A stretch of DNA of 64,000 nucleotides from Escherichia coli (GCF_030013595.1 NZ_CP122768.1), one strand, 5' to 3'; counted from the stretch's first letter, positions 4,693-27,770 are shown. The notes: generated by a model from the sequence alone, not told the origin. Numbers and translations are program-made.

Positions 4693-4693
4693 T

Positions 4694-5290
4694 TTACACT
4701 TCCTCCGGATTAGCCAGATAACCAGTGGTATCGCCGGTCGGGCGGCTGTTGGCGTTAGGTTTGATAACGATATTGGGTTTTGTGAAATGCGCGCGCGGTA
4801 GTGGCGCGACGGCAGCCAGAGTGCCGTGCTTCTGGCGCAGCTCTTCAATTGGACCGAACTCAAGTGCACGCAGCGGGCAGGATTCGACACATATGGGTTG
4901 TTTCCCCTCGGCGACGCGCGAATAACAACCATCGCACTTCGTCATGTGTCCTTTTTCAGCATTGTACTGTGGCGCGCCGTACGGACAAGCCATGTGGCAG
5001 TAGCGGCAGCCGATACAAACATCTTCATCAACCACCACAAAGCCATCTTCACGCTTATGCATTGCGCCGCTGGGGCAGACTTTTGTACATGCGGGGTCAT
5101 CGCAATGGTTACAGGAGATGGAGAGATAATAAGCGAACACGTTCTGGTGCCAGACGCCGCCAGCATATTCATAAATACGGCGGAAACTGACTTCCGGGCC
5201 AAGATCTTTAAAATCTTTGCACGCCAGTTCGCAGGTTTTACAGCCAGTACAGCGGCTGGAATCGATAAAAAATCCATATTGTGTGGTCAT
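4694..5290 (-). CDS. ynfG: DMSO-reductase-type 4Fe-4S ferredoxin subunit
   Basis: 198 aa; four CxxCxxCxxxCP-type cysteine clusters; between ynfF and ynfH. Confidence 0.85.
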   Translation of the reverse strand: MTTQYGFFIDSSRCTGCKTCELACKDFKDLGPEVSFRRIYEYAGGVWHQNVFAYYLSISCNHCDDPACTKVCPSGAMHKREDGFVVVDEDVCIGCRYCHMACPYGAPQYNAEKGHMTKCDGCYSRVAEGKQPICVESCPLRALEFGPIEELRQKHGTLAAVAPLPRAHFTKPNIVIKPNANSRPTGDTTGYLANPEEV

Positions 5291-5300
5291 GGGCTACTCC

Positions 5301-7727
5301 TTAAACCTTTTCGATCTGGACAAGATTGCTGTGCGACGGGTTTCCCTTTGCCAGCGGTGAAGGGCGGTGAGAGGTCAGAATATTGATACTGCCGCCGTGA
5401 TCGACCCGGTCACCAAACATATCCGCTTTAAGCCACGCACCTTGCCCGATGGCGGTAACGCCAGGCAGAATACGCGGAGTCACTTTTGCGGCAATCAGCA
5501 TTTCTCCATTATTGTTAAATACCCGCACGGTATCGCCATGACGGATACCGCGTGCCTGAGCATCAATAGGGTTGATCCACACCTCTTGTGGGCAGGCCTG
5601 CTGTAACACATCAATATTGCCGTAGCTGGAGTGGGTACGCGCTTTGTAGTGGAAGCCCGTTAACTGCAGTGGATAGGTTTTCCGCAGGGGATCGTCCCAG
5701 CCATCAAAACCTGGGGTATACGCAGGAAGGGGATGAATAATTTCATCTTTTTTCAATTCCCAGGTATCCGCAATCGTCGCCAGTCGTTCAGAATAAATTT
5801 CGATTTTCCCCGAAGGTGTTTTCAACGGGTTTGCCTGTGGATCTTCACGGAATGCGCGGAAAGCGACGTAGTGTTCTTCCGGGCATTTTTTCTTAAAGAT
5901 CCCGGTCGTTTTCATCTCCTCGTAGTCGGGCATCTCAGGGTTACGTTCCTTCGTTTTCGCATGGAGATATTTGATCCATTCATGCTGACTGCGACCTTCA
6001 GTAAAGGTTTGATAAACGTCTGGTCCTAAGCGTTTGGCAACTTCACTCAGCATCCAGTAGATGGGTTTGCGTTCAAATTTTGCTGAGGTTGCGGGTTGGG
6101 CGAGGATCACATAGCCCATATTCCCGGCAGATTCGTGAGAGATAAGGTCTTCTTGCTCTGTTGGCATCAGGTCGGGCAACAGGATATCGCAATACTTAGC
6201 CGAGGCAGTCATGAAGTGGTCAATGCCAACAATCATCTCGCACTTGCTGTCATCCTGAAGCACCTCATGGGTGTGATTGATGTCGCCATGTTGATTGATC
6301 AATGTGTTACTGGCGTAGCACCATAAAAACTTGATGGGGACATCCAGTTTTTCTTTTCCACGAACACCATCACGGGTCGCGGTCATTTCCGTACCGTGGT
6401 CGATGGCATCTGTCCATGTAAAGACGGAAATCTGCGTTTTAACAGGATTCTCAAGCATCGGGAACCATTCTACCCCCAGATCCCAGCTACCTTCGCGTAC
6501 ACCTGAGTTGCCGCCGTTTATGCCGACGTTACCGGTGAGAACGGAAAGCATGGCAATAGCGCGGGACGTTTGTTCGCCGTTGGAGTGTCGTTGTGGCCCC
6601 CAACCCTGACAAATATAAGCAGGTTTTGCTGAACCGATCTCTCGTGCCAACTGGATAATTTTTTCTGCCGGGATGCTGGTGATTTTTGCTGCCCATTCCG
6701 GCGTTTTAGCTATGCCGTCAGGCCCTTCGCCCAGAATATAGGCTTTATAATGCGCGTTACGTGGTGCGTTGGCGGGCAGCGTTTTTTCATCGTAACCAAC
6801 ACAATATTTGTCGAGAAATGGCTGATCGACCATGTTTTCAGTAATCAGTACCCAGGCAATCGCACAGGCCAGTGCGCCATCGGTGCCTGGGCGAATTGGC
6901 AGCCATTCATCTTCACGCCCGGCAGCAGTGTCGTTATAACGTGGATCGATGACGATCATGCGTGCGTTTGAACGTTCTCGGGCTTGCTCGACGTAGTAAG
7001 TGACACCACCGCCGCTCATCCGGGTTTCTGCCGGGTTATTTCCGAACATAACGACCAGTTTCGTATTGGCTATATCATCCGGGCTGTTGCCATCATTGGC
7101 ACCGAACATATAACTCATTGCGGCACTGATTTGAGCGGTACTGTAGCTGCCATAGCGACTGAGAAAACCACCGCAAGAGTTCATCAGACGGTACGGGACG
7201 TTCGAGTTGGTGATGTTTCCGCCATCTACGCCTGTTCCGTACAGGACATGTACAGCCTCATTGCCGTAATCTTTAAGGATCCGCCGAAGATTATCACTGA
7301 TGGTATCCAGGGCTTCATCCCAACTTATCCGTTCAAATTTACCTTCACCGCGCTTGCCGACGCGCTTCATGGGATATTTCAACCTGTCAGGATGATTCAT
7401 CCGTCGGCGGATAGAGCGCCCGCGTAAACATGCCCGAACCTGATGATTACCGTAGACGTCGTCACCTGTCGTATCAGACTCCACCCAGTACACGGTGTCA
7501 TCTTTCACATGCAAACGTAACAGACAGCGGCTCCCGCAGTTAACGGTGCAGGAACTCCAGACCGCTTTCTCTTCTACCGGTGTCTCTGCCGCTCGGACCA
7601 TTTGGGAAAATGGCAGAGTGAAAGCACTGCTTGCCAGCGCAAGACTGCCAAGTGCGGAGGTTTTCATCAGACTTCTACGGCTGATTTCAGCCTTCATGAG
7701 CGCCTCTGTGGTATGGATTTTCATCAT
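5301..7727 (-). CDS. ynfF: molybdopterin oxidoreductase catalytic subunit (DmsA paralog) with Tat signal
   Basis: 808 aa; twin-arginine motif SRRSLMK; N-terminal CxxCxxxC cluster; intact paralog of the split ynfE. Confidence 0.9.
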   Translation of the reverse strand: MMKIHTTEALMKAEISRRSLMKTSALGSLALASSAFTLPFSQMVRAAETPVEEKAVWSSCTVNCGSRCLLRLHVKDDTVYWVESDTTGDDVYGNHQVRACLRGRSIRRRMNHPDRLKYPMKRVGKRGEGKFERISWDEALDTISDNLRRILKDYGNEAVHVLYGTGVDGGNITNSNVPYRLMNSCGGFLSRYGSYSTAQISAAMSYMFGANDGNSPDDIANTKLVVMFGNNPAETRMSGGGVTYYVEQARERSNARMIVIDPRYNDTAAGREDEWLPIRPGTDGALACAIAWVLITENMVDQPFLDKYCVGYDEKTLPANAPRNAHYKAYILGEGPDGIAKTPEWAAKITSIPAEKIIQLAREIGSAKPAYICQGWGPQRHSNGEQTSRAIAMLSVLTGNVGINGGNSGVREGSWDLGVEWFPMLENPVKTQISVFTWTDAIDHGTEMTATRDGVRGKEKLDVPIKFLWCYASNTLINQHGDINHTHEVLQDDSKCEMIVGIDHFMTASAKYCDILLPDLMPTEQEDLISHESAGNMGYVILAQPATSAKFERKPIYWMLSEVAKRLGPDVYQTFTEGRSQHEWIKYLHAKTKERNPEMPDYEEMKTTGIFKKKCPEEHYVAFRAFREDPQANPLKTPSGKIEIYSERLATIADTWELKKDEIIHPLPAYTPGFDGWDDPLRKTYPLQLTGFHYKARTHSSYGNIDVLQQACPQEVWINPIDAQARGIRHGDTVRVFNNNGEMLIAAKVTPRILPGVTAIGQGAWLKADMFGDRVDHGGSINILTSHRPSPLAKGNPSHSNLVQIEKV

Positions 7728-7784: not shown

Positions 7785-8810
7785 TTATATTTTTTCGATC
7801 TCGACCAGATTAGTGTGCTGCGGGTTTCCCTTCGCCAGTGGTGAAGGGCGCAGAGTGGTTAGCGTATTCACACAGCCGCCATGGTCGATTTTATCGCCAG
7901 ACATATTGGCCTCGTGCCAGGCTCCCTGGCCCATAGCGCTAACCCCAGGGAGAATGCGTGGTGTTACTTTGGCTGGTAGCCGAACTTCGCCACGATGGTT
8001 AAACACCCGCACCATATCGCCGTTGGCAATCCCACGTTTCTGTGCATCTATAGGGTTGATCCACACCTCCTGACGGCAGGCTTCCTTCAGGACATCAATA
8101 TTGCCGTAGGTCGAGTGGGTACGGGATTTGTAATGGAAACCAAACAGTTGCAGTGGGAAGGTTCTACGTTCAGGGGAGTCCCAGCCTTCAAAGGTTGAGG
8201 CATAAACTGGCAGTGGGCTTATCACTTCATCTTTTTCCAGTTCCCAGGTACGGGCAATTTCCGCCAGCTTGCTGGAATAAATTTCAATCTTACCGGAAGG
8301 CGTTTTAAGTGGATTTGCCTCGGGGTCGTCACGAAATGCTTTGTAGGCGACAAAATGACCATTGGGATCTTTACGCTTATAGATACCCATTTTTTTCAGT
8401 TCGTCGTAAGACGGTAACGCCGGATCTTTGGCAAGCATTTTGGCGTACAGATGTTGTAACCATTGTTCCTGCGTGCGACCTTCTGTGAACTTTTGATAGA
8501 CGTCAGGTCCAAGACGTTTCGCGACTTCACTCAGGATCCAGTAAATCGGTTTGCGTTCGAATTTTTCGCTGGTGACTGGCTGAAGGAAAATGAGATATCC
8601 CATGTTACCTGCGTAGTCGTTAGGAATAATATCTTCCTGCTCAACGGTCATCAGGTCTGGCAGCAGAATGTCGGCATATTTTGCCGATGAGGTCATAAAG
8701 TTTTCGATGACCACAATCATTTCGCATTTCGATTCGTCCTGCAGAATTTCATGCGTTTTGTTGATGTCAGAATGCTGATTAACCAGGGTATTTCCCGCGT
8801 AGTTCCAGAT
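7785..8810 (-). pseudogene. ynfE: ynfE C-terminal fragment (gene split by insertion at 8811)
   Basis: In-frame ynfE sequence from codons I-W-N-Y (8799-8810) to stop at 7785; ORF track upstream extension 8811-8951 is element DNA read in the wrong context. Confidence 0.85.
8801..8810. repeat. left copy of 10-bp direct repeat AGTTCCAGAT flanking the ynfE insert (att core or target duplication)
   Basis: Identical 10-mer at 18242-18251; both copies encode ynfE residues IWN. Confidence 0.8.
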
Positions 8811-8876
8811 GGACTCCACTGTCAGACGGATGGACGGACTTGAAGTAGTTGACTCAACGCTACTTAAGGTCCTGAT

Positions 8877-10485
8877 ATGACTGACATTAACTATGATAAT
8901 ACTGTATATCCATCCAGCTCTTTCTCTGGGTCTCCCTATCTGTATGGGCAAGTCTACACCTCAAGTCCTGACACAAGGCTGACACAAATCAATCTACTCA
9001 GCGTAGCTAAGCCTCAGTTAGTCCGTAGAGCCAATGGTCGATATACTATCCGCTTCAGACTCAAGGGACAGACCACACCGTTTCTTTCAGTATCGACCCG
9101 AAGCACAGACAGGAGAGTAGCCACAATGCGTCAGAGAGAGCTTGCAGCCACAGCTAAGGCCTTCATGTTGGATAGGCCTGAAGTCTCACTACAGGAGCTT
9201 ACAGAGCATCTCCGGTCTATGGCTGAGCAGTTCCTGACAGACGCTAGTGACGATTACTGGAATGGACTTGAGGTCGCTACTTTGGTGGACGAGAAGTCCA
9301 ACCTGAAGGAGCTAGCCGCTACGCAAGCCTTGAGTCTGGACCAGCAGAAGGGCATAAGGTTAGCGCTTGAAGTCCTGACCGCAGCACAGCAGAGGGTAGA
9401 TACTGGTGATACGTCCAGTCTAATCAAGCTGATTGGTGGTGGCGTAAGCCAGCTTACTGATGGAGATGACAATAACCTTACTAATAACTCAACTATATGC
9501 GACTCTACGTTGATTCTGAGGAACGAGCAGGGGGTCAGCCCGCAAGTATTCACGAGAGAGCGCCAACCATCTGTAGTTTTTTCAAGCCTAGTGTCCTCAC
9601 TGCTGGCTGAGAAGGTCCAGACCCTGAAGTCCTCCAGCTACAAGGACCTGTCGTCCTCACTGAATACCGTCTCTCGGTTTCTGCCTGAAGATATGGACCT
9701 GATGTCCCGCTCTGAGTGGCTGGCAGTGAGGGACGCTATGCTGGCTGCTGAGGTGAGACCATCGACAATCAACAAGCTGCTGACCAAAGCGAAGATGTGT
9801 CTCGATTATGGCCTGATGAATGGGCAACTTGAGGGCCGCAACCCTATTGAACGGATGAAGCTGACCAAGGATACCGACTCCAAGCGCAGAGCGTTCACAG
9901 ACGAGGAGCTGGAGAGACTTCTGGTCCGTGTTGAGGCTGAGTATCAGTTCACACGACACACGGCTCACACGACCTCTGAGGCCCGTAGATGGGCGTCTCT
10001 GGTGTCTGTGGTCACTGGCGCGAGGTCTGCTGAGGTCTGCCACCTGACTAAACGTGACGTTGTAACCTTGGACAATGGACTGGTCTGTATCGACATCAAT
10101 GAAGATGGGGACGGGAAGTCTGTGAAGAACAAACATTCAGTCCGACTTGTGCCGTTAACCGATGGGGCCTGTGGTTTCAGCCTGAAGTCCTTCCTCAAAT
10201 GGGTAGACACTCAGCCTGCTGATGGTCCCCTCTTTGGTATGACTCCGAGTGCCTACTCTAGTTGGTTTAACTCTAGGGTCCTGACTGAGGCCCTAGGAGA
10301 CGCTGAGAACGTTTCTCCACAGTCTGAGACATTGGCTGGCGACCCGAATGAAAGAGCGTGGAGTCAATCTGGTGGACGCTCAAGGCATCTTAGGTCACAG
10401 CAGTCAGTCCATTACGTATGACCTGTACGGGAAAGGACACGCTGTTGGTAGGCTGGCTGAGGTGCTGAAGACAGCTTTACTTTAA
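8877..10485 (+). pseudogene. tyrosine recombinase/integrase, apparently frameshifted near 10297-10330
   Basis: N-terminal arm-binding-like segment (GRYTIRFRLKG...STRSTDRRVA); catalytic domain residues in frame A up to 10421; conserved HSLRHWLATRM...LGHSS...YDLYGKGH C-terminus is in the +1 frame ending at 10485. Confidence 0.65.
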
Positions 10486-10644
10486 GTAGGAAGACCCAAG
10501 GTGGAGACCATATACGGCTTGATGGTTGAGACCTTGGGTCACTGAAGTCTGACTGAAGTTAGGGAGGGTGATAATAATCATAATCCCTCCTGACTATAGG
10601 CCCACTGGTTCGCCTTCGGCTGTCCGACTCTAAGTCTGTCTGTG

Positions 10645-10776
10645 GTCTTATTTAAACTGGTTCCCTAACTCAGGTCCTCCAACTTGGTGTCTTATTTAAA
10701 CTGGTTCCCTAACTCAGGTCCTCCAACTTGGTGTCTTATTTAAACTGGTTCCCTAACTCAGGCCCCTCCAAATTTC
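10645..10776 (+). repeat. 44-bp tandem direct repeat, about 2.7 copies (candidate iterons/origin or regulator binding array)
   Basis: Unit GTCTTATTTAAACTGGTTCCCTAACTCAGGTCCTCCAACTTGGT at 10645-10688 and 10689-10732, third copy diverges after about 30 bp. Confidence 0.8.
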
Positions 10777-10792
10777 GTTGTCTGTCAGCGAC

Positions 10793-10818
10793 TTAAATAT
10801 CCCCTCACCTTAGAAGAG
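10793..10818 (+). promoter_or_regulatory. phage single-subunit-RNAP-type promoter P1 (class A, CCCCTCAC upstream)
   Basis: TTAAATATCCCCTCACCTTAGAAGAG; T7-supergroup -17..+6 architecture, predicted +1 G at 10813. Confidence 0.55.
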
Positions 10819-10833
10819 TTTAGGGTTCAGACC

Positions 10834-10857
10834 CTTAACTATCACCTTAGGAGAGAC
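10834..10857 (+). promoter_or_regulatory. phage single-subunit-RNAP-type promoter P2 (class B, AACTATCAC upstream)
   Basis: CTTAACTATCACCTTAGGAGAGA; predicted +1 G at 10850; 45 bp upstream of ORF 10902. Confidence 0.55.
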
Positions 10858-10901
10858 GGGCCGTCCTCCACCCAATCAAAACCTTAAGAGGAGGACCATA
10901 C

Positions 10902-11402
10902 ATGGCTATTAAAATTCAGTGCTACACCGAGTCCGACAATGCGGCTTTCTTCGGTGACGATTCCGACCTCCAGCACCAGCTACCAGCACCGACATATGAC
11001 GAACCTAAGGCCCGCACAGGTAAGCCTCCTGTGGTCATCGACAACCGGGCTGTCCGTGCGTGGCTGATTGAGACTGGGTGTCTCTCCTATACGCAGCTTG
11101 TTGAGGCGTACCCGTGGGCTGACGATGTGTTCACAGGACTCTCACGGGCTACCAGTGGCGCTGTCGGTGCTGGACTCCCGGTATCTAAGGCGTACCTGTT
11201 CTCTGCCTTATATGGCACCAACGACATCTTCTCCCGTAACACAGCCAAATCCTACGCTGACATCACTGGGCGTTCACCGTCTCCTCGCTACCTGCGCCAC
11301 GTCAATAGCGTGCTTCAGGCTACGGCTGTGAATCTGGCTAAGGTTCTGAAGGACCGAGGGGATTTCACATGGTGGGATTACAACGATCAGTGCCTGTCCT
11401 GA
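10902..11402 (+). CDS. hypothetical protein, first gene downstream of P1/P2
   Basis: 166-aa ORF with strong RBS AAGAGGAGG; no family recognised. Confidence 0.6.
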   Translation: MAIKIQCYTESDNAAFFGDDSDLQHQLPAPTYDEPKARTGKPPVVIDNRAVRAWLIETGCLSYTQLVEAYPWADDVFTGLSRATSGAVGAGLPVSKAYLFSALYGTNDIFSRNTAKSYADITGRSPSPRYLRHVNSVLQATAVNLAKVLKDRGDFTWWDYNDQCLS

Positions 11403-11424
11403 GAGCCGCGCCAGCTCTGGGCTG

Positions 11425-11448
11425 GAATACCCCCTCACTATAGGGACA
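11425..11448 (+). promoter_or_regulatory. phage single-subunit-RNAP-type promoter P3 (class A; T3-like CC at -11/-10)
   Basis: GAATACCCCCTCACTATAGGGACA; 13/13 match to T7 consensus from -9 to +4 (CTCACTATAGGGA). Confidence 0.7.
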
Positions 11449-11451
11449 CCC

Positions 11452-11477
11452 CCTAAACTATCACTATAGGGGGGACC
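11452..11477 (+). promoter_or_regulatory. phage single-subunit-RNAP-type promoter P4 (class B)
   Basis: CTAAACTATCACTATAGGGGGGACC; TCACTATAGGG core. Confidence 0.65.
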
Positions 11478-11712
11478 AACCTTGCCTCTGCTTCTGATGC
11501 GTCAGAACACGCGAGGTCCTCCCGACATTAAGTATTCTCCTAAGTAATCAAGGCCCGTGACCGCCTCTGACAGACCTCCTGTATCGACCTCCAGCTCGTT
11601 AGCGTTCTTTAGTCGTCTCGGTTAGTAGGTAACCGGCTCATTTAAACCGTCTGGTCTGTTTCCTCCGGCTCTACAAAAATAATGTCCATCATTTTTTAAT
11701 GGACACTATCGT

Positions 11713-12360
11713 ATGAAACACCGGACCTGGATCACTGAAGCTTTACGTCTTCACTTTGAAGAACATTTACCCCGGGTTGTGGCCGGGCGTCGCCTGGGTG
11801 TACCAAAATCAACAGTTTGTAGTATGTTCGTGCGCTTTCGGAGAGCTGGCCTTTCGTGGCCTTTGCCCGCAGGCATGTCGGAGCAGGAACTTGATGCCTG
11901 CCTTTACGGACAATTTTCCACGGTACCAGTCGTACGTCCTGAAAGCACCGTTATATCCGAAGCCCCCGTGGTAAAAAAACGTCCCCGGCGGCCCAACTTC
12001 CCTTATGAGTTTAAAATCGCCTTAGTGGAGCAGTCACTGCAGCCCGGAGCCTGTGTGGCGCAGATCGCCCGGGAAAACGGAATCAACGATAACCTGCTCT
12101 TCAACTGGCGCCATCAATACCGGAAAGGTGGCCTGCTGCCTTCCGGAAAAAATATGCCGGCACTGCTTCCCGTGACGTTAACGCCGGAGCCGGATAATAA
12201 AATCCCGGCCCCCGCACAGGAACCAGAGCAGATAAATACACCGTCCGACAGTCTGTGTTGTGAGCTGGTTCTGCCGGCCGGAACTCTCAGGCTTAAAGGT
12301 AAACTGACGCCGGCGTTATTACAGACACTTATCCGCGAAATAAAAGGGAGCAGCCACTGA
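11713..12360 (+). CDS. IS66 accessory protein (orf1/TnpA-like)
   Basis: 215 aa, first ORF of IS66 triad; identical to copy-2 ORF. Confidence 0.8.
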   Translation: MKHRTWITEALRLHFEEHLPRVVAGRRLGVPKSTVCSMFVRFRRAGLSWPLPAGMSEQELDACLYGQFSTVPVVRPESTVISEAPVVKKRPRRPNFPYEFKIALVEQSLQPGACVAQIARENGINDNLLFNWRHQYRKGGLLPSGKNMPALLPVTLTPEPDNKIPAPAQEPEQINTPSDSLCCELVLPAGTLRLKGKLTPALLQTLIREIKGSSH

Positions 12361-12707
12361 TGATATCTCTCCCTGCAGGTTCGCGTATCTGGCTGGTTGC
12401 AGGTATCACCGATATGCGAAATGGCTTTAACGGCCTGGCATCAAAAGTTCAGAACGTCCTGAAGGATGACCCGTTCTCCGGACACCTGTTCATCTTCCGC
12501 GGACGCCGGGGTGACCAGATAAAAGTGTTGTGGGCTGACAGTGACGGACTGTGCCTCTTCACCAAACGCCTGGAGCGGGGCCGCTTCGTCTGGCCAGTCA
12601 CCCGTGACGGCAAGGTGCACCTTACTCCGGCTCAGTTATCCATGCTTCTTGAAGGTATCAACTGGAAGCACCCGAAACGAACGGAACGCGCTGGAATCCG
12701 CATATAA
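12360..12707 (+). CDS. IS66 Orf2 (TnpB-like)
   Basis: 115 aa, overlapping start with preceding stop (ATGA); typical IS66 orf2. Confidence 0.8.
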   Translation: MISLPAGSRIWLVAGITDMRNGFNGLASKVQNVLKDDPFSGHLFIFRGRRGDQIKVLWADSDGLCLFTKRLERGRFVWPVTRDGKVHLTPAQLSMLLEGINWKHPKRTERAGIRI

Positions 12708-12726
12708 CCCGTTGTAAAGTGAGGAT

Positions 12727-14298
12727 ATGGACACCTCACTTGCTCATGAGAACGCCCGCCTGCGGGCACTGTTGCAGACGCAACAGGACACCATCCGCCA
12801 GATGGCTGAATACAACCGCCTGCTCTCACAGCGGGTGGCGGCTTATGCTTCCGAAATCAACCGGCTGAAGGCGCTGGTTGCGAAACTGCAACGTATGCAG
12901 TTCGGTAAAAGCTCAGAAAAACTTCGTGCAAAAACCGAACGGCAGATACAGGAAGCACAGGAGCGAATCAGCGCACTTCAGGAAGAAATGGCGGAAACGC
13001 TGGGTGAGCAATATGACCCGGTACTGCCATCCGCCCTGCGCCAGTCTTCAGCCCGTAAACCGTTACCGGCCTCACTTCCCCGTGAAACCCGGGTTATCCG
13101 GCCGGAAGAGGAATGCTGTCCTGCCTGTGGTGGTGAACTCAGTTCTCTGGGATGTGATGTGTCAGAGCAACTGGAGCTTATCAGCAGCGCCTTTAAGGTT
13201 ATCGAAACACAACGTCCGAAACAGGCCTGTTGCCGGTGCGACCATATCGTACAGGCACCAGTACCTTCAAAACCCATTGCACGCAGTTATGCCGGAGCGG
13301 GGCTTCTGGCCCATGTTGTCACCGGGAAATATGCAGACCATCTGCCGTTATACCGCCAGTCAGAAATATACCGTCGTCAGGGAGTGGAGCTGAGCCGTGC
13401 CACACTGGGGCGCTGGACAGGTGCTGTTGCTGAACTGCTGGAGCCGCTGTATGACGTCCTGCGCCAGTATGTGCTGATGCCCGGTAAAGTCCATGCTGAT
13501 GATATCCCCGTCCCGGTCCAGGAGCCGGGCAGCGGTAAAACCCGGACAGCCCGGCTGTGGGTCTACGTCCGTGATGACCGTAACGCCGGTTCACAGATGC
13601 CCCCGGCGGTCTGGTTCGCGTACAGTCCGGACCGGAAAGGTATCCATCCACAAAATCACCTGGCCGGTTACAGCGGTGTGCTTCAGGCCGATGCTTACGG
13701 TGGTTACCGGGCGTTATACGAATCCGGCAGAATAACGGAAGCCGCGTGTATGGCTCATGCCCGGAGAAAAATCCACGATGTGCATGCAAGAGCGCCCACC
13801 TACATCACCACGGAAGCCCTGCAGCGTATCGGTGAACTGTATGCCATCGAGGCAGAGGTCCGGGGCTGTTCAGCAGAACAGCGTCTGGCGGCAAGAAAAG
13901 CCAGAGCCGCGCCACTGATGCAGTCACTGTATGACTGGATACAGCAACAGATGAAAACACTGTCGCGTCACTCAGATACGGCAAAAGCGTTCGCATACCT
14001 GCTGAAACAGTGGGATGCACTGAACGTGTACTGCAGTAATGGCTGGGTGGAAATCGACAACAACATCGCAGAGAACGCCTTACGGGGAGTGGCCGTAGGC
14101 CGGAAAAACTGGATGTTCGCGGGTTCCGACAGCGGTGGTGAACATGCGGCGGTGTTGTACTCGCTGATCGGCACATGCCGTCTGAACAATGTGGAGCCAG
14201 AAAAGTGGCTGCGTTACGTCATTGAACATATCCAGGACTGGCCGGCAAACCGGGTACGCGATCTGTTGCCCTGGAAAGTTGATCTGAGCTCTCAGTAA
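12727..14298 (+). CDS. IS66-family DDE transposase (Orf3/TnpC)
   Basis: 523 aa with leucine-zipper-like N-terminus, CxxC...CxxC zinc motif and DDE region. Confidence 0.85.
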
Positions 14299-14582
14299 AT
14301 ATCAATACGGTTCTGACGAGTCGCTTACGTTAGTAGCTCGTCTACTCACTACATTGGCTTAAGTCTATCACCGCTCACCATCTGGAGTCCTTACAGCTCG
14401 TCCTGACATGCGGTCTCACCTTATATGCACATGGAGAACATGGCCACTCCAGACCAACACTAATCAACATTAACCCTATTCACTTTCGTTAAGCATTTTT
14501 TGGTGGGTCCGTTTGGATGCATTGAATAGGTGCGGACTCCACGTGGAGACAGAAAGTGCTTTACTAAAGGAGCATCCTTTAT

Positions 14583-14972
14583 ATGACTATTAAATCCATC
14601 GTTATCAACGGTAAGACCATCCTGTCTACACCTAACGCCATCAATGAGGGTGTCTGGTTCGACATGCTTGAGGTCCATCAAGCTGCTGGCTTGCCTGCTA
14701 ACAAGACGTTCTCACAGTGGCGCAGCCGACAGTCTCGTGCATTAGAAGAGGCTGGAGAGGTGTCGTTTGACAGTGTACAGAAGACCCTGTGTGGCAGCTT
14801 TGTGGCAGTGCTGGCCTACCTTATGTGGGCGGACCTTACTCTCTGGCTGGCGGTGGTTCGTTACGTTGCGTCTGAGACTATCGGCGTCCTGCCTGACCGC
14901 TTCAAGTCTATCGACGGTGATAACCCCGAGTTAGAAATGTCAGAGGATAACAGCGAGTGGGAGGACTTCTAA
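14583..14972 (+). CDS. KilA-N domain protein (short)
   Basis: 129 aa; N-terminal motif WFDMLEVHQAAGLPANK...WLAVVRYV resembling KilA-N; strong RBS AAGGAG. Confidence 0.55.
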   Translation: MTIKSIVINGKTILSTPNAINEGVWFDMLEVHQAAGLPANKTFSQWRSRQSRALEEAGEVSFDSVQKTLCGSFVAVLAYLMWADLTLWLAVVRYVASETIGVLPDRFKSIDGDNPELEMSEDNSEWEDF

Positions 14973-14973
14973 G

Positions 14974-15714
14974 ATGACCATGAGCCAGCTTGAAGCATTA
15001 CCTATCGTCATCGAGGGTCATTCATTCATCTGCAACGACCAGCGCATGTGGAACCTGAACGAGATTCACCGAGTGTTAGGTCTTCCAGCAAGCAAGATGC
15101 CGTCTGAGTGGAATAACAAGATTCGCACACAACTTGACCGCTCCGGAAATTTCCGGACCGTGAATGGTGACGGCGGTGGTACATGGGCGACCGAGGCTGG
15201 GACCGTGGCTTATGCTATGTGGGTCTCTACAGATTTCTACCTGATGGTCATCAATGCTTTCATCTTTATGCGTAACGACGCAATCGTCCGAGAGCGTGTA
15301 GCGGTCAAACAGGCTGACGAGGCTAACGCTAACCTCTCCATCGCAGCACCTAAGGCAGACATCTTTGACGGTCGTCTGACCAATGGTGGCTCTGTTCCGT
15401 GGAACTGGGCGTGTAAATCTTTGGGTCTTGCCCCGATGAAACTGAAAGAGGGCTTGAAGCGCTCCGGTAAGTTCGTCCAGAAGTGGAACCCTGACAGTTA
15501 CGCCGACGAGCTTCGACCTCAGGAGAAGGCGTTCAGTATTGGACTATTCGTCACTAAGTCAGTCATGGGTAAAGACACATGGCAGGTGACAGCTAAAGGC
15601 TACGCATGGATGCAGGGGAACGCCCAGAAGTGGAGAGAGCTAATAGCTGATGGTGACCGCTTAAAGGCTGCTGAGCGTCGAGCACAGAAGCGTCTTAACC
15701 GTGGAGGTAAGTAG
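14974..15714 (+). CDS. KilA-N domain protein with C-terminal extension
   Basis: 246 aa; MWNLNEIHRVLGLP...NGDGGGTWATEAGTVAYAMWVSTDFYLMVI typical of KilA-N; start 2 nt after preceding stop. Confidence 0.6.
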   Translation: MTMSQLEALPIVIEGHSFICNDQRMWNLNEIHRVLGLPASKMPSEWNNKIRTQLDRSGNFRTVNGDGGGTWATEAGTVAYAMWVSTDFYLMVINAFIFMRNDAIVRERVAVKQADEANANLSIAAPKADIFDGRLTNGGSVPWNWACKSLGLAPMKLKEGLKRSGKFVQKWNPDSYADELRPQEKAFSIGLFVTKSVMGKDTWQVTAKGYAWMQGNAQKWRELIADGDRLKAAERRAQKRLNRGGK

Positions 15715-15716
15715 TC

Positions 15717-15941
15717 ATGGCTATGATTGACCCTCGTACACCTATCGGCAAAGCGACCCTTCGTTACCGTGGTCTGCCTACACGTCATCTGCTGTCCCTG
15801 CTGAGACTTGGAGTCGAAGACCCCGAACGCCCGTACTACAGTCGAGACGAGCTAATAGCTATGTTGGTGGACCGTGATTTAGACAATCAGTTACGCCGAG
15901 CCTTTGCGAAGTCTAGCGCAGCTAGGGAACTGGAGTCCTGA
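15717..15941 (+). CDS. hypothetical protein
   Basis: 74-aa ORF, start 3 nt after preceding stop, same strand. Confidence 0.45.
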   Translation: MAMIDPRTPIGKATLRYRGLPTRHLLSLLRLGVEDPERPYYSRDELIAMLVDRDLDNQLRRAFAKSSAARELES

Positions 15942-16146
15942 ACCTTATGGGGCAGAAAAACCGCCGCATAAACCTATCGTCTGCTGACCGAAGTTTCGAC
16001 GCATTGAGCCAGACGGAAAAGTTTTCCTGCTGGTAAACCACCTTAATTTAAACACCTTTTGAGAATGACCGATGCGGGGAGACCCGTAGGCATAACTGTG
16101 TCTGCGATACCGATAGTTCTCACCTTCTCAATAGGAGTACTACCTT

Positions 16147-16638
16147 ATGTTATTCAACAACAACGACTGGAAACTATCAGTCACCGACATCAATCCCTAT
16201 GAAAATACTGTGAGTCTGGACGGTCAGTCCTATCCGCTGTCTCTGGCGATTAAGACCCTGATTCCGGGCTACCTGTCAGGCTTACCGTCCACCAGCCGCG
16301 AGGCGATGGAGTTACTGGAAGCTCTGGCTGAAGCTGGCGTGTCCATTGGCAACTTCTTCAGTAATGACCTGATGACCGCCTATGGTCGCCGCCAGCAGAA
16401 CAAGCGAGCCGAAGCTGAGCGTATTGCTAAAGAGCAGCGCATTCAGGCTGAGCGTATGCGTGAAGAGAACATGACTGATGCAGAGTGGCAGAAAGAGCTA
16501 CAGCGCCGTGAACAGGTCAAAGCTGAACGCCGGACCTATGGTGAGCACCTCCGCAGTGCTACCCATTCCGCTGGGCGCTCCCGTGCTTCTATGGTCGCTG
16601 ACATTGAGTCCACGGACAACTGGATGGACAGCCTCTAA
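16147..16638 (+). CDS. hypothetical charged coiled-coil protein (scaffold-like?)
   Basis: 163 aa; RBS AGGAG; C-terminal K/R/E-rich helical segment. Confidence 0.5.
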   Translation: MLFNNNDWKLSVTDINPYENTVSLDGQSYPLSLAIKTLIPGYLSGLPSTSREAMELLEALAEAGVSIGNFFSNDLMTAYGRRQQNKRAEAERIAKEQRIQAERMREENMTDAEWQKELQRREQVKAERRTYGEHLRSATHSAGRSRASMVADIESTDNWMDSL

Positions 16639-16704
16639 GACACAGACACACAAGTGGTCCTGACCTGATGTCGGGACCCACAGTATCCAAACTAATTTAG
16701 GAGA

Positions 16705-17700
16705 TTGATTATTATGACGATTAAAGACGCTTTCCAGTTCGGCATTGAGCCAGTACGTATCAGCGACACCGACAACATTCAGATTAACGAAGGTTTGCCA
16801 ACTAACGCAGACCCGCAGGTCTATGCCCTCCAGTTAGCTAAGACGGTTAAGGCTATGCTGAACGGTGTACTTAAAGACGCTCAAGAGAACATCCCGTTCC
16901 CTGTAGAAGTCCTGCCGACCCGCAATAGCCTGCCTACTCCAATCATTGCTCACACTCTGGCTGATCGCTCTGTGGTCGTTCCTGTCCGTGGTGGTAAGCG
17001 ACCTGAAGTCGTGACCGTTCCGTCTGGACAAGAAATCGTGGTCGAACCAATCGAGCAGGCTATTCTCATCTCTGAGCAGACCAAGCTCTGGGACGCCAAG
17101 TCATCCACCGGATTCACTCAGGGCACACTTCAGCAGGACGCTATGAACATCTGTGAGAATGTGGTCCGTACCATCAACGCTCGCATGGTCGACGTTCTGG
17201 AGTCCTCCAAACTGTTGAAGACCGTAGAGCTGCCAGTCCTGACTGGAAGCCTGACCACTAAGGCAGACGCTATCATGGACGCTCTGTTTGAGAACACCGA
17301 GTCCTCTTTCGGCTCTGAAGTGTCTGATTACGGCATCATCGCCCATGAGTCCCAACTGAAAGCGCTGTCCCGTCTGGCAGCTAAACAGGGCTTCTCTGGT
17401 GGAGACGCTATCGTGGATATGCTGGGTACCGACATCGCCTATTACAACGGTGAAGACAAGGGTGTATTCATGCTGGCTAAACGCTTCACGGCCCTGAGCT
17501 TCGGCTGCTTCCGTCACGACGGTGAGAATATTACGGTCGTCCTTTCACGTGATGGCGACTCTCAGTCCCACGACTTGGAAATCCTCGGTAAAGTGTTCGT
17601 TGTCGCTGAAGCTGCTACGACCATCAAGATGGGCACTGGCTCAGCTACTGCCGTCCTGCCTGTAGTCAAACGCCTGAAGTTCACCAAGACCGAAGCGTAA
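16705..17700 (+). CDS. hypothetical 331-aa protein (possible virion/structural protein; unverified)
   Basis: Long ORF with RBS AGGAG directly downstream of coiled-coil ORF; no motif recognised. Confidence 0.5.
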   Translation: MIIMTIKDAFQFGIEPVRISDTDNIQINEGLPTNADPQVYALQLAKTVKAMLNGVLKDAQENIPFPVEVLPTRNSLPTPIIAHTLADRSVVVPVRGGKRPEVVTVPSGQEIVVEPIEQAILISEQTKLWDAKSSTGFTQGTLQQDAMNICENVVRTINARMVDVLESSKLLKTVELPVLTGSLTTKADAIMDALFENTESSFGSEVSDYGIIAHESQLKALSRLAAKQGFSGGDAIVDMLGTDIAYYNGEDKGVFMLAKRFTALSFGCFRHDGENITVVLSRDGDSQSHDLEILGKVFVVAEAATTIKMGTGSATAVLPVVKRLKFTKTEA

Positions 17701-17844
17701 GACCAATGGGTAAGAGGTAAGTCTGGACTGAATATCAGCAGGACTTCAGGTGGTGGCCTGTCACTGTGATTAACTAACTACGGTCTGGACCAATGGTCTG
17801 GGCCTTATTACTGGTATGGTAGTATACAGGCGAAGGAGGACCCA

Positions 17845-18000
17845 ATGTCTATGACTTCCGCAGACCTAAGGTCCCTCCTGACTCTGGTCTATAAACTCGT
17901 GTTCCTCTCTGTGGGTCTCTACATGGTTCTCTCTGGTCGACTCGGTGTGGATGTGTTCGACACTCTGTCTAAGGCTGTGGGTGGACTTCTAGGTCCTTAG
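17845..18000 (+). CDS. small hydrophobic protein (51 aa, one predicted TM helix)
   Basis: ATG 17845 with RBS GAAGGAGG; LVFLSVGLYMVLSG hydrophobic core; below ORF-track length cutoff. Confidence 0.4.
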   Translation: MSMTSADLRSLLTLVYKLVFLSVGLYMVLSGRLGVDVFDTLSKAVGGLLGP

Positions 18001-18241
18001 GTTTGGACTCACAGTGGGACCGATGATTTCTGACAGAAAAATGTGAATGACCATCTAATACATTAAGCCAGCAGACTTCCCCCCATAGTCCCGCCTCAAG
18101 TCCAGACCGAGGCCACCGGGGGTCCTGACCAGCCGTCTAGACATCCCGTCTAATGACACAAGTCTGGCACAAAGCCTGACACAAAGTCCTTGACTCAATG
18201 CAGGACCTCAGGCCTACTAAGGGTCCGCTTCAAGTCCTTGA

Positions 18242-18251
18242 AGTTCCAGAT
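18242..18251. repeat. right copy of 10-bp direct repeat AGTTCCAGAT
   Basis: Identical to 8801-8810; ynfE sequence resumes here. Confidence 0.8.
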
Positions 18252-19652
18252 GAACTTAATGGGCACATCCAGTTTATCTTTGCCGCGGACGCCGTCGCGG
18301 ATTGCCGTCATTTGCGGGCCATGATCGATAGCATCCGTCCAGCTGAAGCAGGAGATTGACGTTTTGACCGGATTATCCAGCACCGGTAGGCGTTCTATGG
18401 TAATGGTATAGGTCGATTCACGCGCGCCACTATTCCCGCCGCTGATGCCGACATTGCCCGTCAAAATAGGCAACATAGCAATAGCGCGTGCGGTCAGCTC
18501 ACCGTTTGCCTGGCGTTGCGGCCCCCAGCCCTGGCAGATATAAGCGGGTTTTGCTGTGCCAATTTCACGCGCCAGTTTGATGATACGGTCCACCGGGATA
18601 CCGGTAATTTGCGAAGCCCACTGCGGCGTTTTCGCTGTTTTATCGTCACCTTCACCAAGAATATAGGCTTTATAGTGACCATTTTTTGGTGCATCTGCGG
18701 GTAAGGTTTTTTCGTCATAGCCGACGCAGTATTTATCAAGAAAAGGTTGATCAACGAGATTTTCGTTAATCAATACCCAGGCAATACCCGCAACCAGCGC
18801 GGCATCGGTGCCCGGGCGAATAGGAAGCCATTCGTCTTCACGACCGGCAGCCGTATCGGTATATCGCGGATCGATAACAATCATTTTTGCGTTCGATTTC
18901 TCGCGCGCTTTTTCAAGAAGATAAGTGATGCCACCACCGCTCATGCGGGTTTCTGCCGGGTTGTTACCAAACATCACGACCAGCTTGCTGTTTTCAATAT
19001 CCGTGGTGCTGTTGCCATCATTACTGCCGTAGGTGTAGGGCATGGCACAGGAAATTTGCGCGGTGCTGTAGGAGCCATACTGGTTGAGTGAGCCGCCGTA
19101 GCAGTTCATCAGGCGTTTGACCGCCGAGGCGGATGGCGAAGAGCGGGTCATATTGCCGCCAACAATCCCCGAAGAGTACTGAATATATACAGCCTCATTG
19201 TCATATTGTTCGACGGTTTTTTTCAGGCTACTGGCGATAGTATCCAGGGCTTCATCCCAGCTAATCCGTTCGAATTTGCCTTCGCCGCGTTTGCCCACGC
19301 GTTTCATTGGGTAATTCAAGCGGTCGGGATGATTAATACGCCGACGGATGGAGCGACCGCGCAAACAGGCGCGTACTTGATGATTGCCATACTCATCGCT
19401 GCCGGTGTTGTCAGTTTCCACCCAGGTCACTTCATTATCTTTAACATGCAGACGAAGTGCACAGCGGCTACCACAGTTGACGGAACAGGCACCCCAGACC
19501 ACTTTCTCGCTGGCCTGTTGTACTGCTGCCGCTGCACTGCGCAGGGTGAACGGTAAAGAAAAACCGCCTGCAGCCAGCGCCAGAGAACCTATCGCGGTAG
19601 ATTTAACGAGTGTTCTGCGGCTGATGCCCACCATTTGTTCATTTTTGGACAT
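18243..19652 (-). pseudogene. ynfE: ynfE N-terminal fragment (Tat signal, catalytic subunit) ending at insertion junction
   Basis: 470 ynfE codons from MSKNEQMVGISRRTLVKS to IWN at 18243; ORF then runs 16 codons into element DNA to a stop at 18195. Confidence 0.85.
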
Positions 19653-27403: not shown

Positions 27404-27422
27404 ATCCTCACTTTACAACGGG

Positions 27423-27770
27423 TTATATGCGGATTCCAGCGCGTTCCGTTCGTTTCGGGTGCTTCCAGTTGATACCTTCAAGAAGCATGGATAACTGAGC
27501 CGGAGTAAGGTGCACCTTGCCGTCACGGGTGACTGGCCAGACGAAGCGGCCCCGCTCCAGGCGTTTGGTGAAGAGGCACAGTCCGTCACTGTCAGCCCAC
27601 AACACTTTTATCTGGTCACCCCGGCGTCCGCGGAAGATGAACAGGTGTCCGGAGAACGGGTCATCCTTCAGGACGTTCTGAACTTTTGATGCCAGGCCGT
27701 TAAAGCCATTTCGCATATCGGTGATACCTGCAACCAGCCAGATACGCGAACCTGCAGGGAGAGATATCAT
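27423..27770 (-). CDS. IS66 Orf2 (TnpB-like)
   Basis: 115 aa identical to copy 1. Confidence 0.8.
   Translation of the reverse strand: MISLPAGSRIWLVAGITDMRNGFNGLASKVQNVLKDDPFSGHLFIFRGRRGDQIKVLWADSDGLCLFTKRLERGRFVWPVTRDGKVHLTPAQLSMLLEGINWKHPKRTERAGIRI

What the first reader, a model, noticed from the sequence alone, without database searches (positions are those of the whole stretch)
14583..15714. Tandem KilA-N domain paralogs as the first genes after the promoter block
ORFs 14583-14972 and 14974-15714 both open with a KilA-N-like segment (FDMLEVHQAAGLPANK / WNLNEIHRVLGLPASK followed by a hydrophobic AYAMWVS-type helix). The second adds a 130-aa C-terminal extension ending in a basic tail. 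KilA-N proteins act as DNA-binding regulators or antirepressors in phages, so these are candidate regulators of the helper-element interaction.
Basis: partly seen in the sequence, partly recalled or inferred. Interest (0 to 1): 0.45.

Follow-up and report, generated by a model that had tools for sequence, protein, structure and literature searches.

The report
Paired KilA-N proteins on phage-dependent island
Two adjacent genes for KilA-N-type DNA-binding proteins sit in a small E. coli island whose promoters copy those of T7-like (K1F-type) phages, so they are probably switched on only when such a phage infects; one is an ordinary P1 KilA-like protein and the other a previously unrecognised truncated relative.

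Summary
Both ORFs exist as described. ORF2 (14974-15714) passes Pfam KilA-N (25.1 bits; cut-off 23.8). Its "C-terminal extension" is the known KilAC/ANT domain, and it aligns over 83% of its length with phage P1 KilA. ORF1 (14583-14972) hits no library, but it is a true, old paralog of ORF2's N-domain: hhalign 97.5%, and 34 bits against the family HMM versus at most 6.3 for 2000 shuffles. It is under purifying selection (dN/dS 0.07-0.20). It carries a disordered acidic tail ending in WEDF.

The genes lie in a ~6.7-kb island inserted in ynfE. The island carries promoters matching K1F-type phage promoters. It belongs to a family found in E. coli, Pectobacterium, Serratia and Pseudomonas, each with promoters of T7-like type. 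ORF2 is a core gene of that family. ORF1 occupies a modular slot that elsewhere holds Rha-, Bro-N- or other KilA-N-type genes. A conserved ~95-nt hairpin that sequesters the ribosome-binding site precedes the first KilA-N gene in all nine lineages examined.

Best reading: DNA-binding factors induced by the helper phage. The antirepressor reading is not supported. This copy is decaying: an IS66 insertion and a frameshifted integrase.

The parts
14583..14972 (+). ORF1, 129 aa: a stand-alone, divergent KilA-N-fold domain (aa 1-100) plus a disordered acidic tail (aa 101-129) ending in W-E-D-F.
14974..15714 (+). ORF2, 246 aa: P1 KilA-like two-domain protein. KilA-N about nt 15037-15267 (aa 22-98), KilAC/ANT about nt 15331-15615 (aa 120-214), basic helical tail aa 217-246.
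   Evidence: Pfam KilA-N 25.1 bits (cut-off 23.8) and ANT 22.0 bits (cut-off 25.3). PHROG 129 and 63 at E about 1e-11. tblastn to P1 kilA, 27.5% identity over 83% of the protein, E 3e-7. 232 homologs. 36 of 50 hit KilA-N and 14 of 50 hit ANT. Model.
14479..14572 (+). Leader hairpin (~95 nt) whose base pairs an upstream CUUU-type motif with the Shine-Dalgarno sequence (AAAGGAG, 14566-14572) of ORF1.
   Evidence: RNA folds of six then nine lineages give the same architecture, z -2.2 to -4.2. 23 of 35 pairs show double compensatory changes in a structure-guided alignment. A covariance model built from non-E. coli copies finds the element at the same position in L006, L011-13, L019 and L009, but not in K1F. 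No Rfam match in the island region 8800-18300.
11427..11476 (+). Two tandem T7-group (K1F-type) phage RNA polymerase promoter copies, ..CCCTCACTATAGGGACA and CTAAACTATCACTATAGGGGGGA. They lie upstream of ORF1 and are now separated from it by the IS.
   Evidence: Sequence. Pattern hits at 11435 and 11461. The corresponding L002 promoter is a 24-nt exact copy of the K1F promoter in front of capsid gene 10, and K1F-like phages carry about 8 such sites per genome.
11629..14328 (+). IS66-family insertion (three ORFs of 215, 115 and 523 aa) flanked by the 8-bp duplication GTTAGTAG (11621-11628 and 14329-14336). It splits the leader between the promoters and the hairpin.
   Evidence: ORFs. Sequence. 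Intact islands without it: L001 and L002.
15717..15941 (+). 74-aa gene that starts 2 nt after the ORF2 stop. It is conserved (63-88 aa) and overlaps or abuts the KilA gene in the other lineages.
   Evidence: Homologs L003_63 and L005_67. Gene tables.
8801..18255 (+). The whole island between direct repeats AGTTCCAGATG(G/A)AC in ynfE. Gene order: integrase (frameshifted), orf166, promoters, [IS], hairpin, ORF1, ORF2, orf74, orf163 (DUF6971-like), orf331, orf51.
   Evidence: ynfE fragments annotated on both sides in L001 and L002. Integrase 2-nt deletion at about 10318.

Best explanation
ORF1 and ORF2 are two KilA-N-fold DNA-binding proteins of a ~6.7-kb integrative island that depends on a T7-like (K1F-type, Kayfunavirus) phage.

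Shown here:
- They have no host-type promoter of their own.
- They lie downstream of copies of the helper phage's RNA polymerase promoters.
- They follow a conserved long hairpin that sequesters the ribosome-binding site of the first KilA-N gene.

Inferred: they are made only after the helper's RNA polymerase appears, and their translation is gated by the leader.

ORF2 (KilA-N plus KilAC, like P1 KilA) is the conserved core factor. I infer that it binds specific DNA, most likely the island's own DNA, and launches the island's infection-time programme. That programme would be excision, replication or packaging by helper enzymes, since the island has no recognisable Rep, primase, Xis/AlpA or terminase gene.

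ORF1 is an accessory, truncated paralog. It keeps the fold but has changed two thirds of the family's conserved residues, and it has an acidic disordered tail in place of KilAC. I infer that it modulates the system in one of two ways. It may occupy DNA or partner sites without the KilAC effector part. Alternatively, and more speculatively, its SSB-like acidic tail ending in Phe may contact the helper's replication proteins.
For: KilA-N membership of ORF2 and full-length homology to P1 KilA.

ORF1 is homologous to the ORF2 N-domain and is under purifying selection (dS up to 0.24, dN/dS 0.07-0.20). Its model has a confident alpha/beta core. The nearest solved folds are DNA-binding domains, including Dachshund/Ski and the APSES domain of Mbp1.

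Context. The island promoter is a 24-nt exact copy of the K1F promoter in front of capsid gene 10. Relatives in Pectobacterium, in an unnamed enterobacterial metagenome and in Pseudomonas carry T3/T7-like or gh-1-like promoter sequences at the same place. No sigma-70-like promoter or terminator lies between 14250 and 16200.

ORF2 orthologs sit at the same position in every island examined: int, variable gene, leader, KilA, small gene, DUF6971-like gene, 331-381-aa gene. Every variant has at least one KilA-N domain gene directly after the hairpin.

No replication, excisionase or packaging domains were found in the island genes.

Tail. ORF1 ends ..SEDNSEWEDF and K1F gp2.5 SSB ends ..GGDYDF. A second short KilA-N protein (L019) ends ..SYDF. 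The acidic tail of T7 gp2.5 and its terminal Phe mediate contact with T7 DNA polymerase (PMC12339929 and the references it cites).
Against: No DNA target, partner or phenotype is known; the function rests on domain class and context.

The ORF2 model is mediocre (pLDDT 71, pTM 0.43) and has no significant match among solved structures.

KilA-N and KilAC proteins have not, to my knowledge, been shown to act in excision or replication, and P1 KilA is dispensable for P1 lytic replication (annotation).

The tail-mimicry idea is weak. The last codons of ORF1 (GAG TGG GAG GAC TTC) contain the Shine-Dalgarno sequence of ORF2. The YDF end in L019 overlaps the next gene's ATG. The conserved terminal residues may therefore reflect translational coupling. 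No other lineage has such a tail.

In this window the IS66 insertion and the broken integrase mean the module may no longer be expressed or useful.
Confidence: 0.4

Rival explanations
1. Interference factors. ORF2, with ORF1 or without it, binds the helper phage's DNA (for example its promoters or late-gene region) and reduces helper gene expression or replication. This would resemble what the PLE satellite's DNA-binding protein CapR does to ICP1 capsid genes.
For: The DNA-binding class and helper-promoter control are the same as above. The slot holding ORF1 is highly modular, with KilA-N, Rha-like and Bro-N genes swapped between closely related islands. That pattern is typical of genes in an arms race with a phage. 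CapR is a precedent for a satellite DNA-binding protein tuning helper expression (PMC8096241).
Against: ORF2 itself is slow-evolving and a core gene: it is identical in the window, L001 and L002, and 44-70% identical across genera. This fits a housekeeping role for the island better than an arms-race role. No helper binding site has been identified.
Confidence: 0.2
2. Abortive-infection toxin. Like P1 KilA, ORF2 is lethal to the cell. Placing it behind a phage-polymerase promoter and a translational lock would make the island a suicide defence against T7-like phages rather than a satellite.
For: ORF2 is homologous to P1 KilA over 83% of its length; one P1-like record (phage SJ46) annotates kilA as a putative host-killing protein, and that P1 KilA expression kills E. 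coli is my recollection of the literature, not checked here. There is tight double control, by promoter and by SD-sequestering hairpin. ORF1 and ORF2 remain intact in this window although the integrase is broken.
Against: The island family keeps integrases, att sites and four further conserved genes. Whole islands turn up as separate 6.8-kb contigs, which points to a mobile, helper-exploiting element. Toxicity of this protein is untested. There is only a weak sub-threshold PADLOC hit.
Confidence: 0.15
3. Classical antirepressors. The KilAC/ANT protein binds and inactivates a repressor, either of the island or of a resident prophage such as the lambdoid prophage at 25-64 kb.
For: The Pfam ANT family name. 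PHROG 63 'anti-repressor Ant' at E 8.7e-11. A lambdoid prophage lies in the same window.
Against: No repressor-like gene was recognised in the island. The promoters point to a virulent T7-like helper, which has no repressor. Relatives in other genera keep the gene without any linked prophage.
Confidence: 0.07
4. ORF1 is a decaying remnant of a duplication and has no function of its own.
For: It has no profile hit and a tiny family: 13 word-indexed hits and 14 hits in the exhaustive search, mostly fragments or chimeras. It lacks two thirds of the conserved residues. It is absent from most islands.
Against: dN/dS is 0.07-0.20 at dS up to 0.24, with the frame intact in all 40 full-length copies. 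The fold is predicted with confidence. Stand-alone short KilA-N genes occupy the same position in two other lineages.
Confidence: 0.05

Closest known systems
Phage P1 KilA (founding member of the KilA-N and KilAC domains)
   Same: ORF2 has the same two-domain architecture and aligns over aa 9-213 (27.5% identity, E 3e-7). It matches the Pfam KilA-N and ANT profiles.
   Different: ORF2 is encoded on a 6.7-kb island, not on a phage. It is driven by T7-group promoters and followed by a coupled 74-aa gene rather than repL. Toxicity is untested. ORF1 has only the N-domain.
Shuffled regulators of DNA viruses built from KilA-N, Bro-N, Rha and KilAC domains (Iyer, Koonin and Aravind 2002, recalled from memory; also summarised in PMC8096241)
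   Same: The slot after the leader holds interchangeable genes of exactly these domain classes: KilA-N, a weakly Rha-like gene, Rha and Bro-N.
   Different: Here the domains are often split into separate, translationally coupled genes: short KilA-N plus Rha in L011, and short KilA-N plus divergent KilA-N in L019 and in the window.
PICMI and other minimal satellites of virulent phages (PMC10803314); PLE of Vibrio cholerae
   Same: A small integrative island that is apparently activated by a virulent phage and lacks capsid and packaging genes. About six island copies equal the helper genome length (6.7 kb x 6 is roughly the 39.7 kb of K1F).
   Different: There is no alpA, fis, primase or terS. 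Induction would be direct, through copies of the helper's own RNA polymerase promoters. The core genes (KilA-N/KilAC, DUF6971-like, 331-381 aa) are unrelated to PICMI, PICI, P4 or PLE genes. Transfer has not been shown.
PLE CapR (satellite DNA-binding protein that represses helper capsid genes; PMC8096241)
   Same: A satellite-encoded DNA-binding protein from the same broad world of phage-regulator and homing-endonuclease domains, made on infection.
   Different: No sequence relationship was tested or found, and no target is known for ORF1 or ORF2.
Acidic C-terminal tails of T7-group gp2.5 SSB and of E. coli SSB
   Same: The ORF1 tail is disordered and acidic and ends in Asp-Phe preceded by an aromatic residue. 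K1F gp2.5 ends DYDF.
   Different: ORF1 is not an OB-fold protein. The terminal codons double as ORF2's ribosome-binding site. The resemblance is short and could be coincidental.
T7 early-mRNA leader and RNase III processing hairpins (from memory)
   Same: A long irregular hairpin in a phage-polymerase transcript, immediately 5' of a gene start.
   Different: Here the base of the hairpin pairs with the SD. RNase III cleavage is not tested. There is no Rfam family.

Membership tests
KilA-N domain (Pfam PF04383) | Profile match at or above the curated gathering score | tested here: met
   ORF2 scores 25.1 bits against a cut-off of 23.8, E 1.7e-5, aa 22-98. 36 of 50 family members match at E <= 1e-3. 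ORF1 has no hit at E <= 1, so this row is met for ORF2 only.
KilA-N domain (Pfam PF04383) | ORF1: demonstrable homology to bona fide KilA-N domains | tested here: met
   hhalign against the ORF2 family gives 97.5%, E 5e-12. The family HMM scores ORF1 at 34 bits, versus at most 6.3 for 2000 shuffles. In the exhaustive phmmer search ORF1 reaches P0142 (E 5.5e-4 library-wide), which itself scores 22.7 bits on KilA-N. The database hits P0012 and P0013 are ORF1-ORF2 chimeras and were not counted.
KilA-N domain (Pfam PF04383) | Alpha/beta DNA-binding fold related to fungal APSES domains | tested here: inconclusive
KilA-N domain (Pfam PF04383) | Sequence-specific DNA binding | not testable with these tools
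   Needs EMSA, DAP-seq or ChIP-seq.
KilAC / ANT domain (Pfam PF03374) | Profile match at or above the gathering score in the C-terminal half | tested here: inconclusive
   ORF2 scores 22.0 bits against a cut-off of 25.3 (E 2.1e-4, aa 120-214). 14 of 50 orthologs match at E <= 1e-3, best 4.1e-8. The alignment with P1 KilA runs through this region. ORF1 lacks the domain.
Phage antirepressors (functional class) | A cognate repressor encoded by the element or its helper | tested here: not met
   No repressor-type domain was found in any island gene. The helper implied by the promoters is a virulent Kayfunavirus with no repressor annotated.
Phage satellites (PICI, PICMI, P4, PLE) | Integrase plus att sites; small size | tested here: met
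   Tyrosine integrase. 14-nt direct repeats at 8801 and 18242 inside ynfE. 6.7 kb without the IS. In this window the integrase is frameshifted.
Phage satellites (PICI, PICMI, P4, PLE) | Hallmark genes of the described families (alpA/Stl-type regulators, primase or Rep, terS, capsid-size genes) | tested here: not met
   None was detected in Pfam, PHROGs or NCBIfam for any island gene. The 331-aa protein has no match in phage genomes or the PDB.
Phage satellites (PICI, PICMI, P4, PLE) | Induction by a helper and transfer in helper particles | not testable with these tools
   There is only indirect sequence evidence: promoter identity with K1F-like phages, and whole-island contigs of 6.8 kb.

The most novel reading that the evidence does not exclude
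The KilA-N genes are the helper-sensing and helper-hijacking module of an undescribed family of satellites of T7-like phages. They would be transcribed from stolen helper promoters and unlocked from an SD-sequestering leader. ORF2 would mark the island DNA. ORF1 would use an SSB-like acidic tail ending in Phe to draw the helper's DNA polymerase or primase-helicase onto island DNA, or away from the helper's.
Probability: 0.12. Interest if true: 0.8.

Novelty: new variant of a known kind. Interest (0 to 1): 0.5.

Why it matters
KilA-N and KilAC proteins are very common in phages and mobile elements, yet almost none has a defined molecular job. Here one of them is a fixed core gene of a very small island whose only apparent input is the RNA polymerase of a virulent T7-like phage. 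That makes a simple, tractable system (K1F-type phage plus E. coli strains carrying the intact ynfE island) in which the role of a KilA-type protein could be pinned down. If the island is a satellite, it would extend satellite biology to the T7 group, whose replication and packaging are understood in detail. The pair of full-length and truncated KilA-N proteins, together with the conserved leader hairpin, would then be its control module. I found no paper describing such islands in the searchable library. That is absence of evidence only.

Tried and rejected
- Pfam, PHROGs, NCBIfam and PADLOC gave nothing for ORF1.
- tblastn of ORF1 against 50,697 phage records found no match.
- The word-indexed search and the exhaustive HMMER search with ORF1 returned almost only near-identical E. 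coli and Citrobacter sequences, fragments and three ORF1-ORF2 chimeras (P0002, P0012, P0013). I rejected the Pfam hit of P0012 as independent evidence, because it comes from the ORF2 part.
- Long repetitive proteins in the exhaustive search (P0137, P0139, P0140) were treated as spurious matches to the acidic tail.
- A profile search of the ORF2 family against the PDB gave only a chance-level homeodomain hit.
- hhalign found no relation between the ORF2 family and either the Rha-type protein of L011 or the 165-aa protein of L008.
- The 331-aa island protein had no match in phages or the PDB, so the idea that the island encodes its own capsid protein could not be tested.
- Rfam found nothing in the island.
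- MAFFT and RNAalifold on the leader failed because the stems differ in sequence. Single-sequence folds and a structure-guided alignment were used instead.
- Terminal overlaps that would show circular contigs were not found.
- Seven literature searches found no description of the island or of T7-group satellites.

Full report
**The observation**

One base separates the stop of ORF1 from the ATG of ORF2.

ORF2 passes the Pfam gathering score for KilA-N: 25.1 bits against a cut-off of 23.8, over aa 22-98. Its C-terminal half matches the ANT/KilAC profile just below threshold (22.0 bits against 25.3). PHROGs places it with 'transcriptional regulator' and 'anti-repressor Ant' families at E about 1e-11. 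It aligns with phage P1 KilA over 83% of its length, at 27.5% identity and E 3e-7. Among 50 orthologs, 36 hit KilA-N and 14 hit ANT at E <= 1e-3. The '130-aa extension ending in a basic tail' is therefore the known KilAC domain plus a basic helix. ORF2 has the classical P1 KilA architecture, and RefSeq already names it 'KilA-N domain-containing protein'.

**ORF1 is a real, old paralog**

ORF1 has no hit in Pfam, PHROGs, NCBIfam or PADLOC and none in phage genomes. It is nevertheless homologous to the N-domain of ORF2:
- BLASTP gives E 5e-9.
- hhalign gives probability 97.5%, E 5e-12.
- An HMM of the ORF2 family built without the window ORF2 and its two closest homologs scores ORF1 at 34 bits. 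The best of 2000 shuffles scores 6.3.

ORF1's own family is tiny. Three database 'homologs' are ORF1-ORF2 chimeras, so their Pfam hit was discounted.

ORF1 is not a dead duplicate. Between E. coli variants dS reaches 0.24, while dN/dS is 0.07-0.20.

It is also not a recent duplicate. It keeps only 13 of the 37 N-domain positions that are at least 90% conserved in the ORF2 family; the GTWATE and RN motifs are lost. It is closer to a stand-alone 118-aa protein of a distant island (56 bits) than to ORF2 (39 bits).

**The island**

The genes belong to an island inserted in ynfE between direct repeats AGTTCCAGATG(G/A)AC at 8801 and 18242 (annotation of intact copies). Its gene order is:
- integrase;
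- a variable gene (orf166 here);
- phage-type promoters;
- a ~400-nt leader;
- ORF1, ORF2 and a coupled 74-aa gene;
- a 163-aa DUF6971-like gene, a 331-aa gene and a 51-aa ORF.

In this window the island is decaying. An IS66-family element (11629-14328, 8-bp duplication GTTAGTAG) splits the leader. The integrase also has a 2-nt deletion that frameshifts it before the catalytic HxLRH..Y region.

**The promoters**

The window carries ..TCACTATAGGG.. twice, at 11435 and 11461. In the intact island L002 one promoter is a 24-nt exact copy of the promoter in front of capsid gene 10 of coliphage K1F. K1F-like phages (Kayfunavirus) carry about eight or nine such sites per genome. No sigma-70-like promoter or intrinsic terminator is found between 14250 and 16200.

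Orthologs of ORF2 occur in 232 protein clusters from Pectobacterium, Pantoea, Serratia, Pseudomonas and metagenomes. Where I looked, they sit in islands with the same gene order. Those islands carry T7-group promoter sequences at the same place:
- ATTAACCCTCACTATAGGGAGA in Pectobacterium;
- GCGACTCACTAAAGGGAGA in an unnamed metagenome contig;
- AAAAACCCCCACAAGAACC, which I recall as gh-1-like, in Pseudomonas.

Two whole islands appear as separate 6.8-kb contigs. I therefore read the island as a satellite-like or defence-like element that responds to T7-like phages. Seven searches of the paper library found no description of it.

**Core and accessory genes**

The ORF2-type gene is a core gene of the family. 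ORF1 is not. Full-length ORF1 is in 40 of 5426 complete E. coli genomes, and ORF2 of this type is in 43. Parts of the island backbone are in 314.

The position directly after the leader is modular:
- L008 has a 165-aa, weakly Rha-like gene there, followed by a 45-nt remnant of the ORF1 3' end and then ORF2.
- L019, another E. coli ynfE island, has a 122-aa KilA-N protein (Pfam 28.8 bits) followed by a 165-aa divergent KilA-N protein (20 bits against the family HMM). This is a second, different tandem KilA-N pair.
- L011 has a 118-aa KilA-N protein followed by a Rha protein.
- Pectobacterium adds a Bro-N protein upstream.

Every variant has at least one KilA-N domain gene right after the leader.

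**The leader hairpin**

In all nine lineages examined, the ~100 nt before the first KilA-N gene fold into the same long irregular hairpin. Its base pairs a conserved CAGUCUUU-type motif with the Shine-Dalgarno sequence. In the window the hairpin spans 14479-14572 and the SD is at 14566-14572.

The stems differ in sequence between lineages. In an alignment guided by each sequence's own fold, and therefore biased towards structure, 23 of 35 pairs show double compensatory changes. A covariance model built from non-E. coli copies finds the element at the same position in Pseudomonas, L011-13, L019 and an E. coli island, but not in K1F. It did not reach the window's own copy with default filters. 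Rfam has no match. I infer a translational lock on the first KilA-N gene. Whether RNase III or another factor opens it is untested.

**How it most likely works**

Shown: the domain identities, the paralogy, the purifying selection, the promoter identity with K1F-type phages, the conserved gene order, and the hairpin.

Inferred: the two proteins are made only after the helper's RNA polymerase appears. ORF2 binds DNA and starts the island's infection-time programme. The island has no recognisable Rep, primase, excisionase or terminase, so a DNA-binding adaptor that lets helper enzymes act on island DNA is my preferred reading (confidence 0.4).

ORF1 probably modulates this. It keeps the fold but has altered surface residues and an acidic tail in place of KilAC. 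It ends ..SEWEDF. K1F gp2.5 SSB ends ..DYDF, and the short KilA-N protein of L019 ends ..SYDF. In T7, the acidic tail of gp2.5 and its terminal Phe contact the DNA polymerase (PMC12339929 and the references it cites).

This mimicry is only a lead. The last codons of ORF1 contain ORF2's Shine-Dalgarno sequence, and the YDF end in L019 overlaps the next ATG. No other lineage has such a tail.

**Rivals**
- Interference with the helper by binding its DNA, as PLE CapR does (PMC8096241): confidence 0.2.
- A P1 KilA-like toxin used for abortive infection: 0.15.
- A classical antirepressor: 0.07. No repressor gene is present, and the lambdoid prophage at 25-64 kb is not the helper that the promoters imply.
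- ORF1 as a non-functional remnant: 0.05, contradicted by dN/dS.

**Verdict**

ORF2 on its own is an ordinary member of a known family. The new elements are the truncated acidic-tailed paralog, the modular slot, the conserved leader, and control by T7-group promoters. Together these make it a new variant of a known kind, with moderate interest (0.5).

Noticed in passing
window 14479-14572 (also L003 ~738-825, L004 ~7905-7992, L006 ~7900-7992, L011 ~5722-5812, L019 ~4686-4782): A conserved ~95-nt irregular hairpin lies immediately 5' of the first KilA-N gene. Its base sequesters the Shine-Dalgarno sequence. The stems co-vary between nine lineages, and there is no Rfam family. It may be a translational lock or an RNase III-type processing site.
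   Followed up: partly
window 11427-11476 and 10834-10856; L002 14411-14433 and 14839-14862; L004 ~7245-7270, 7643-7665, 7815-7840; L003 424-446; L006 ~6876-6895, 7810-7830: T7-group phage RNA polymerase promoter copies occur in chromosomal islands. The E. coli one is a 24-nt exact copy of the K1F promoter in front of capsid gene 10. Islands from other genera carry T3/T7-like or (from memory) gh-1-like versions. This implies a family of ~6-7-kb islands keyed to T7-like phages, and no paper on them was found.
   Followed up: partly
window 11629-14328 (second copy about 25832-28417 on the - strand): An IS66-family element with the 8-bp target duplication GTTAGTAG is inserted in the island's leader, between the phage-type promoters and ORF1. 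A second copy with the same ORF sizes lies next to the prophage integrase.
   Followed up: partly
window 8877-10486, deletion at ~10318: The island integrase has a 2-nt deletion relative to L002. The deletion frameshifts it before the HxLRH..Y catalytic region, so this copy of the island is probably immobile.
   Followed up: yes
window 8801-8814 and 18242-18255; ynfE fragments 7785-8951(-) and 18195-19652(-): [quoted passage not shown]
   Followed up: partly
window 10645-10776; L002 14181-14381: There are three tandem repeats upstream of the first island gene: 44-nt units in the window, and different 83-nt units in L002, each containing CTTGACAT. They could be host-type promoters, iterons or packaging signals.
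   Followed up: no
window 15717-15941, 16147-16638, 16705-17700, 17845-18000: Four further genes, three with homologs in other lineages, have unknown function. They are a 74-aa gene coupled to ORF2, a 163-aa DUF6971-like coiled-coil protein, a 331-aa protein with no match in 50,697 phage records or in the PDB, and a 51-aa hydrophobic ORF.
   Followed up: partly
L008 4505-5046; L019 4789-5644; L011 5821-6749: The slot occupied by ORF1 is modular. L008 has a weakly Rha-like gene plus a 45-nt remnant of ORF1. L019 has a different tandem KilA-N pair whose first member ends in YDF. L011 has a short KilA-N gene plus a Rha gene.
   Followed up: partly
proteins P0002, P0012, P0013: Database proteins that are chimeras of ORF1 and ORF2, joined within the homologous N-domains. 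They are either real recombination between the paralogs or assembly artefacts.
   Followed up: no
L017 (6838 bp) and L018 (6761 bp): Two contigs from different sequencing runs begin just before the integrase gene and end just after the 358-aa gene, so each spans the island from integrase to the 358-aa gene. This is compatible with free, excised or packaged copies, but also with assembly breaks at att sites. The only contigs tested for terminal overlap (L003, L012, L013, L014) showed none; L017 and L018 were not tested.
   Followed up: partly
window ~25000-64000: A lambdoid prophage lies downstream of the rsp genes: tyrosine integrase, lambda-type terminase gpA, portal, capsid E and tape measure. 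It is unrelated to the promoters of the ynfE island.
   Followed up: partly
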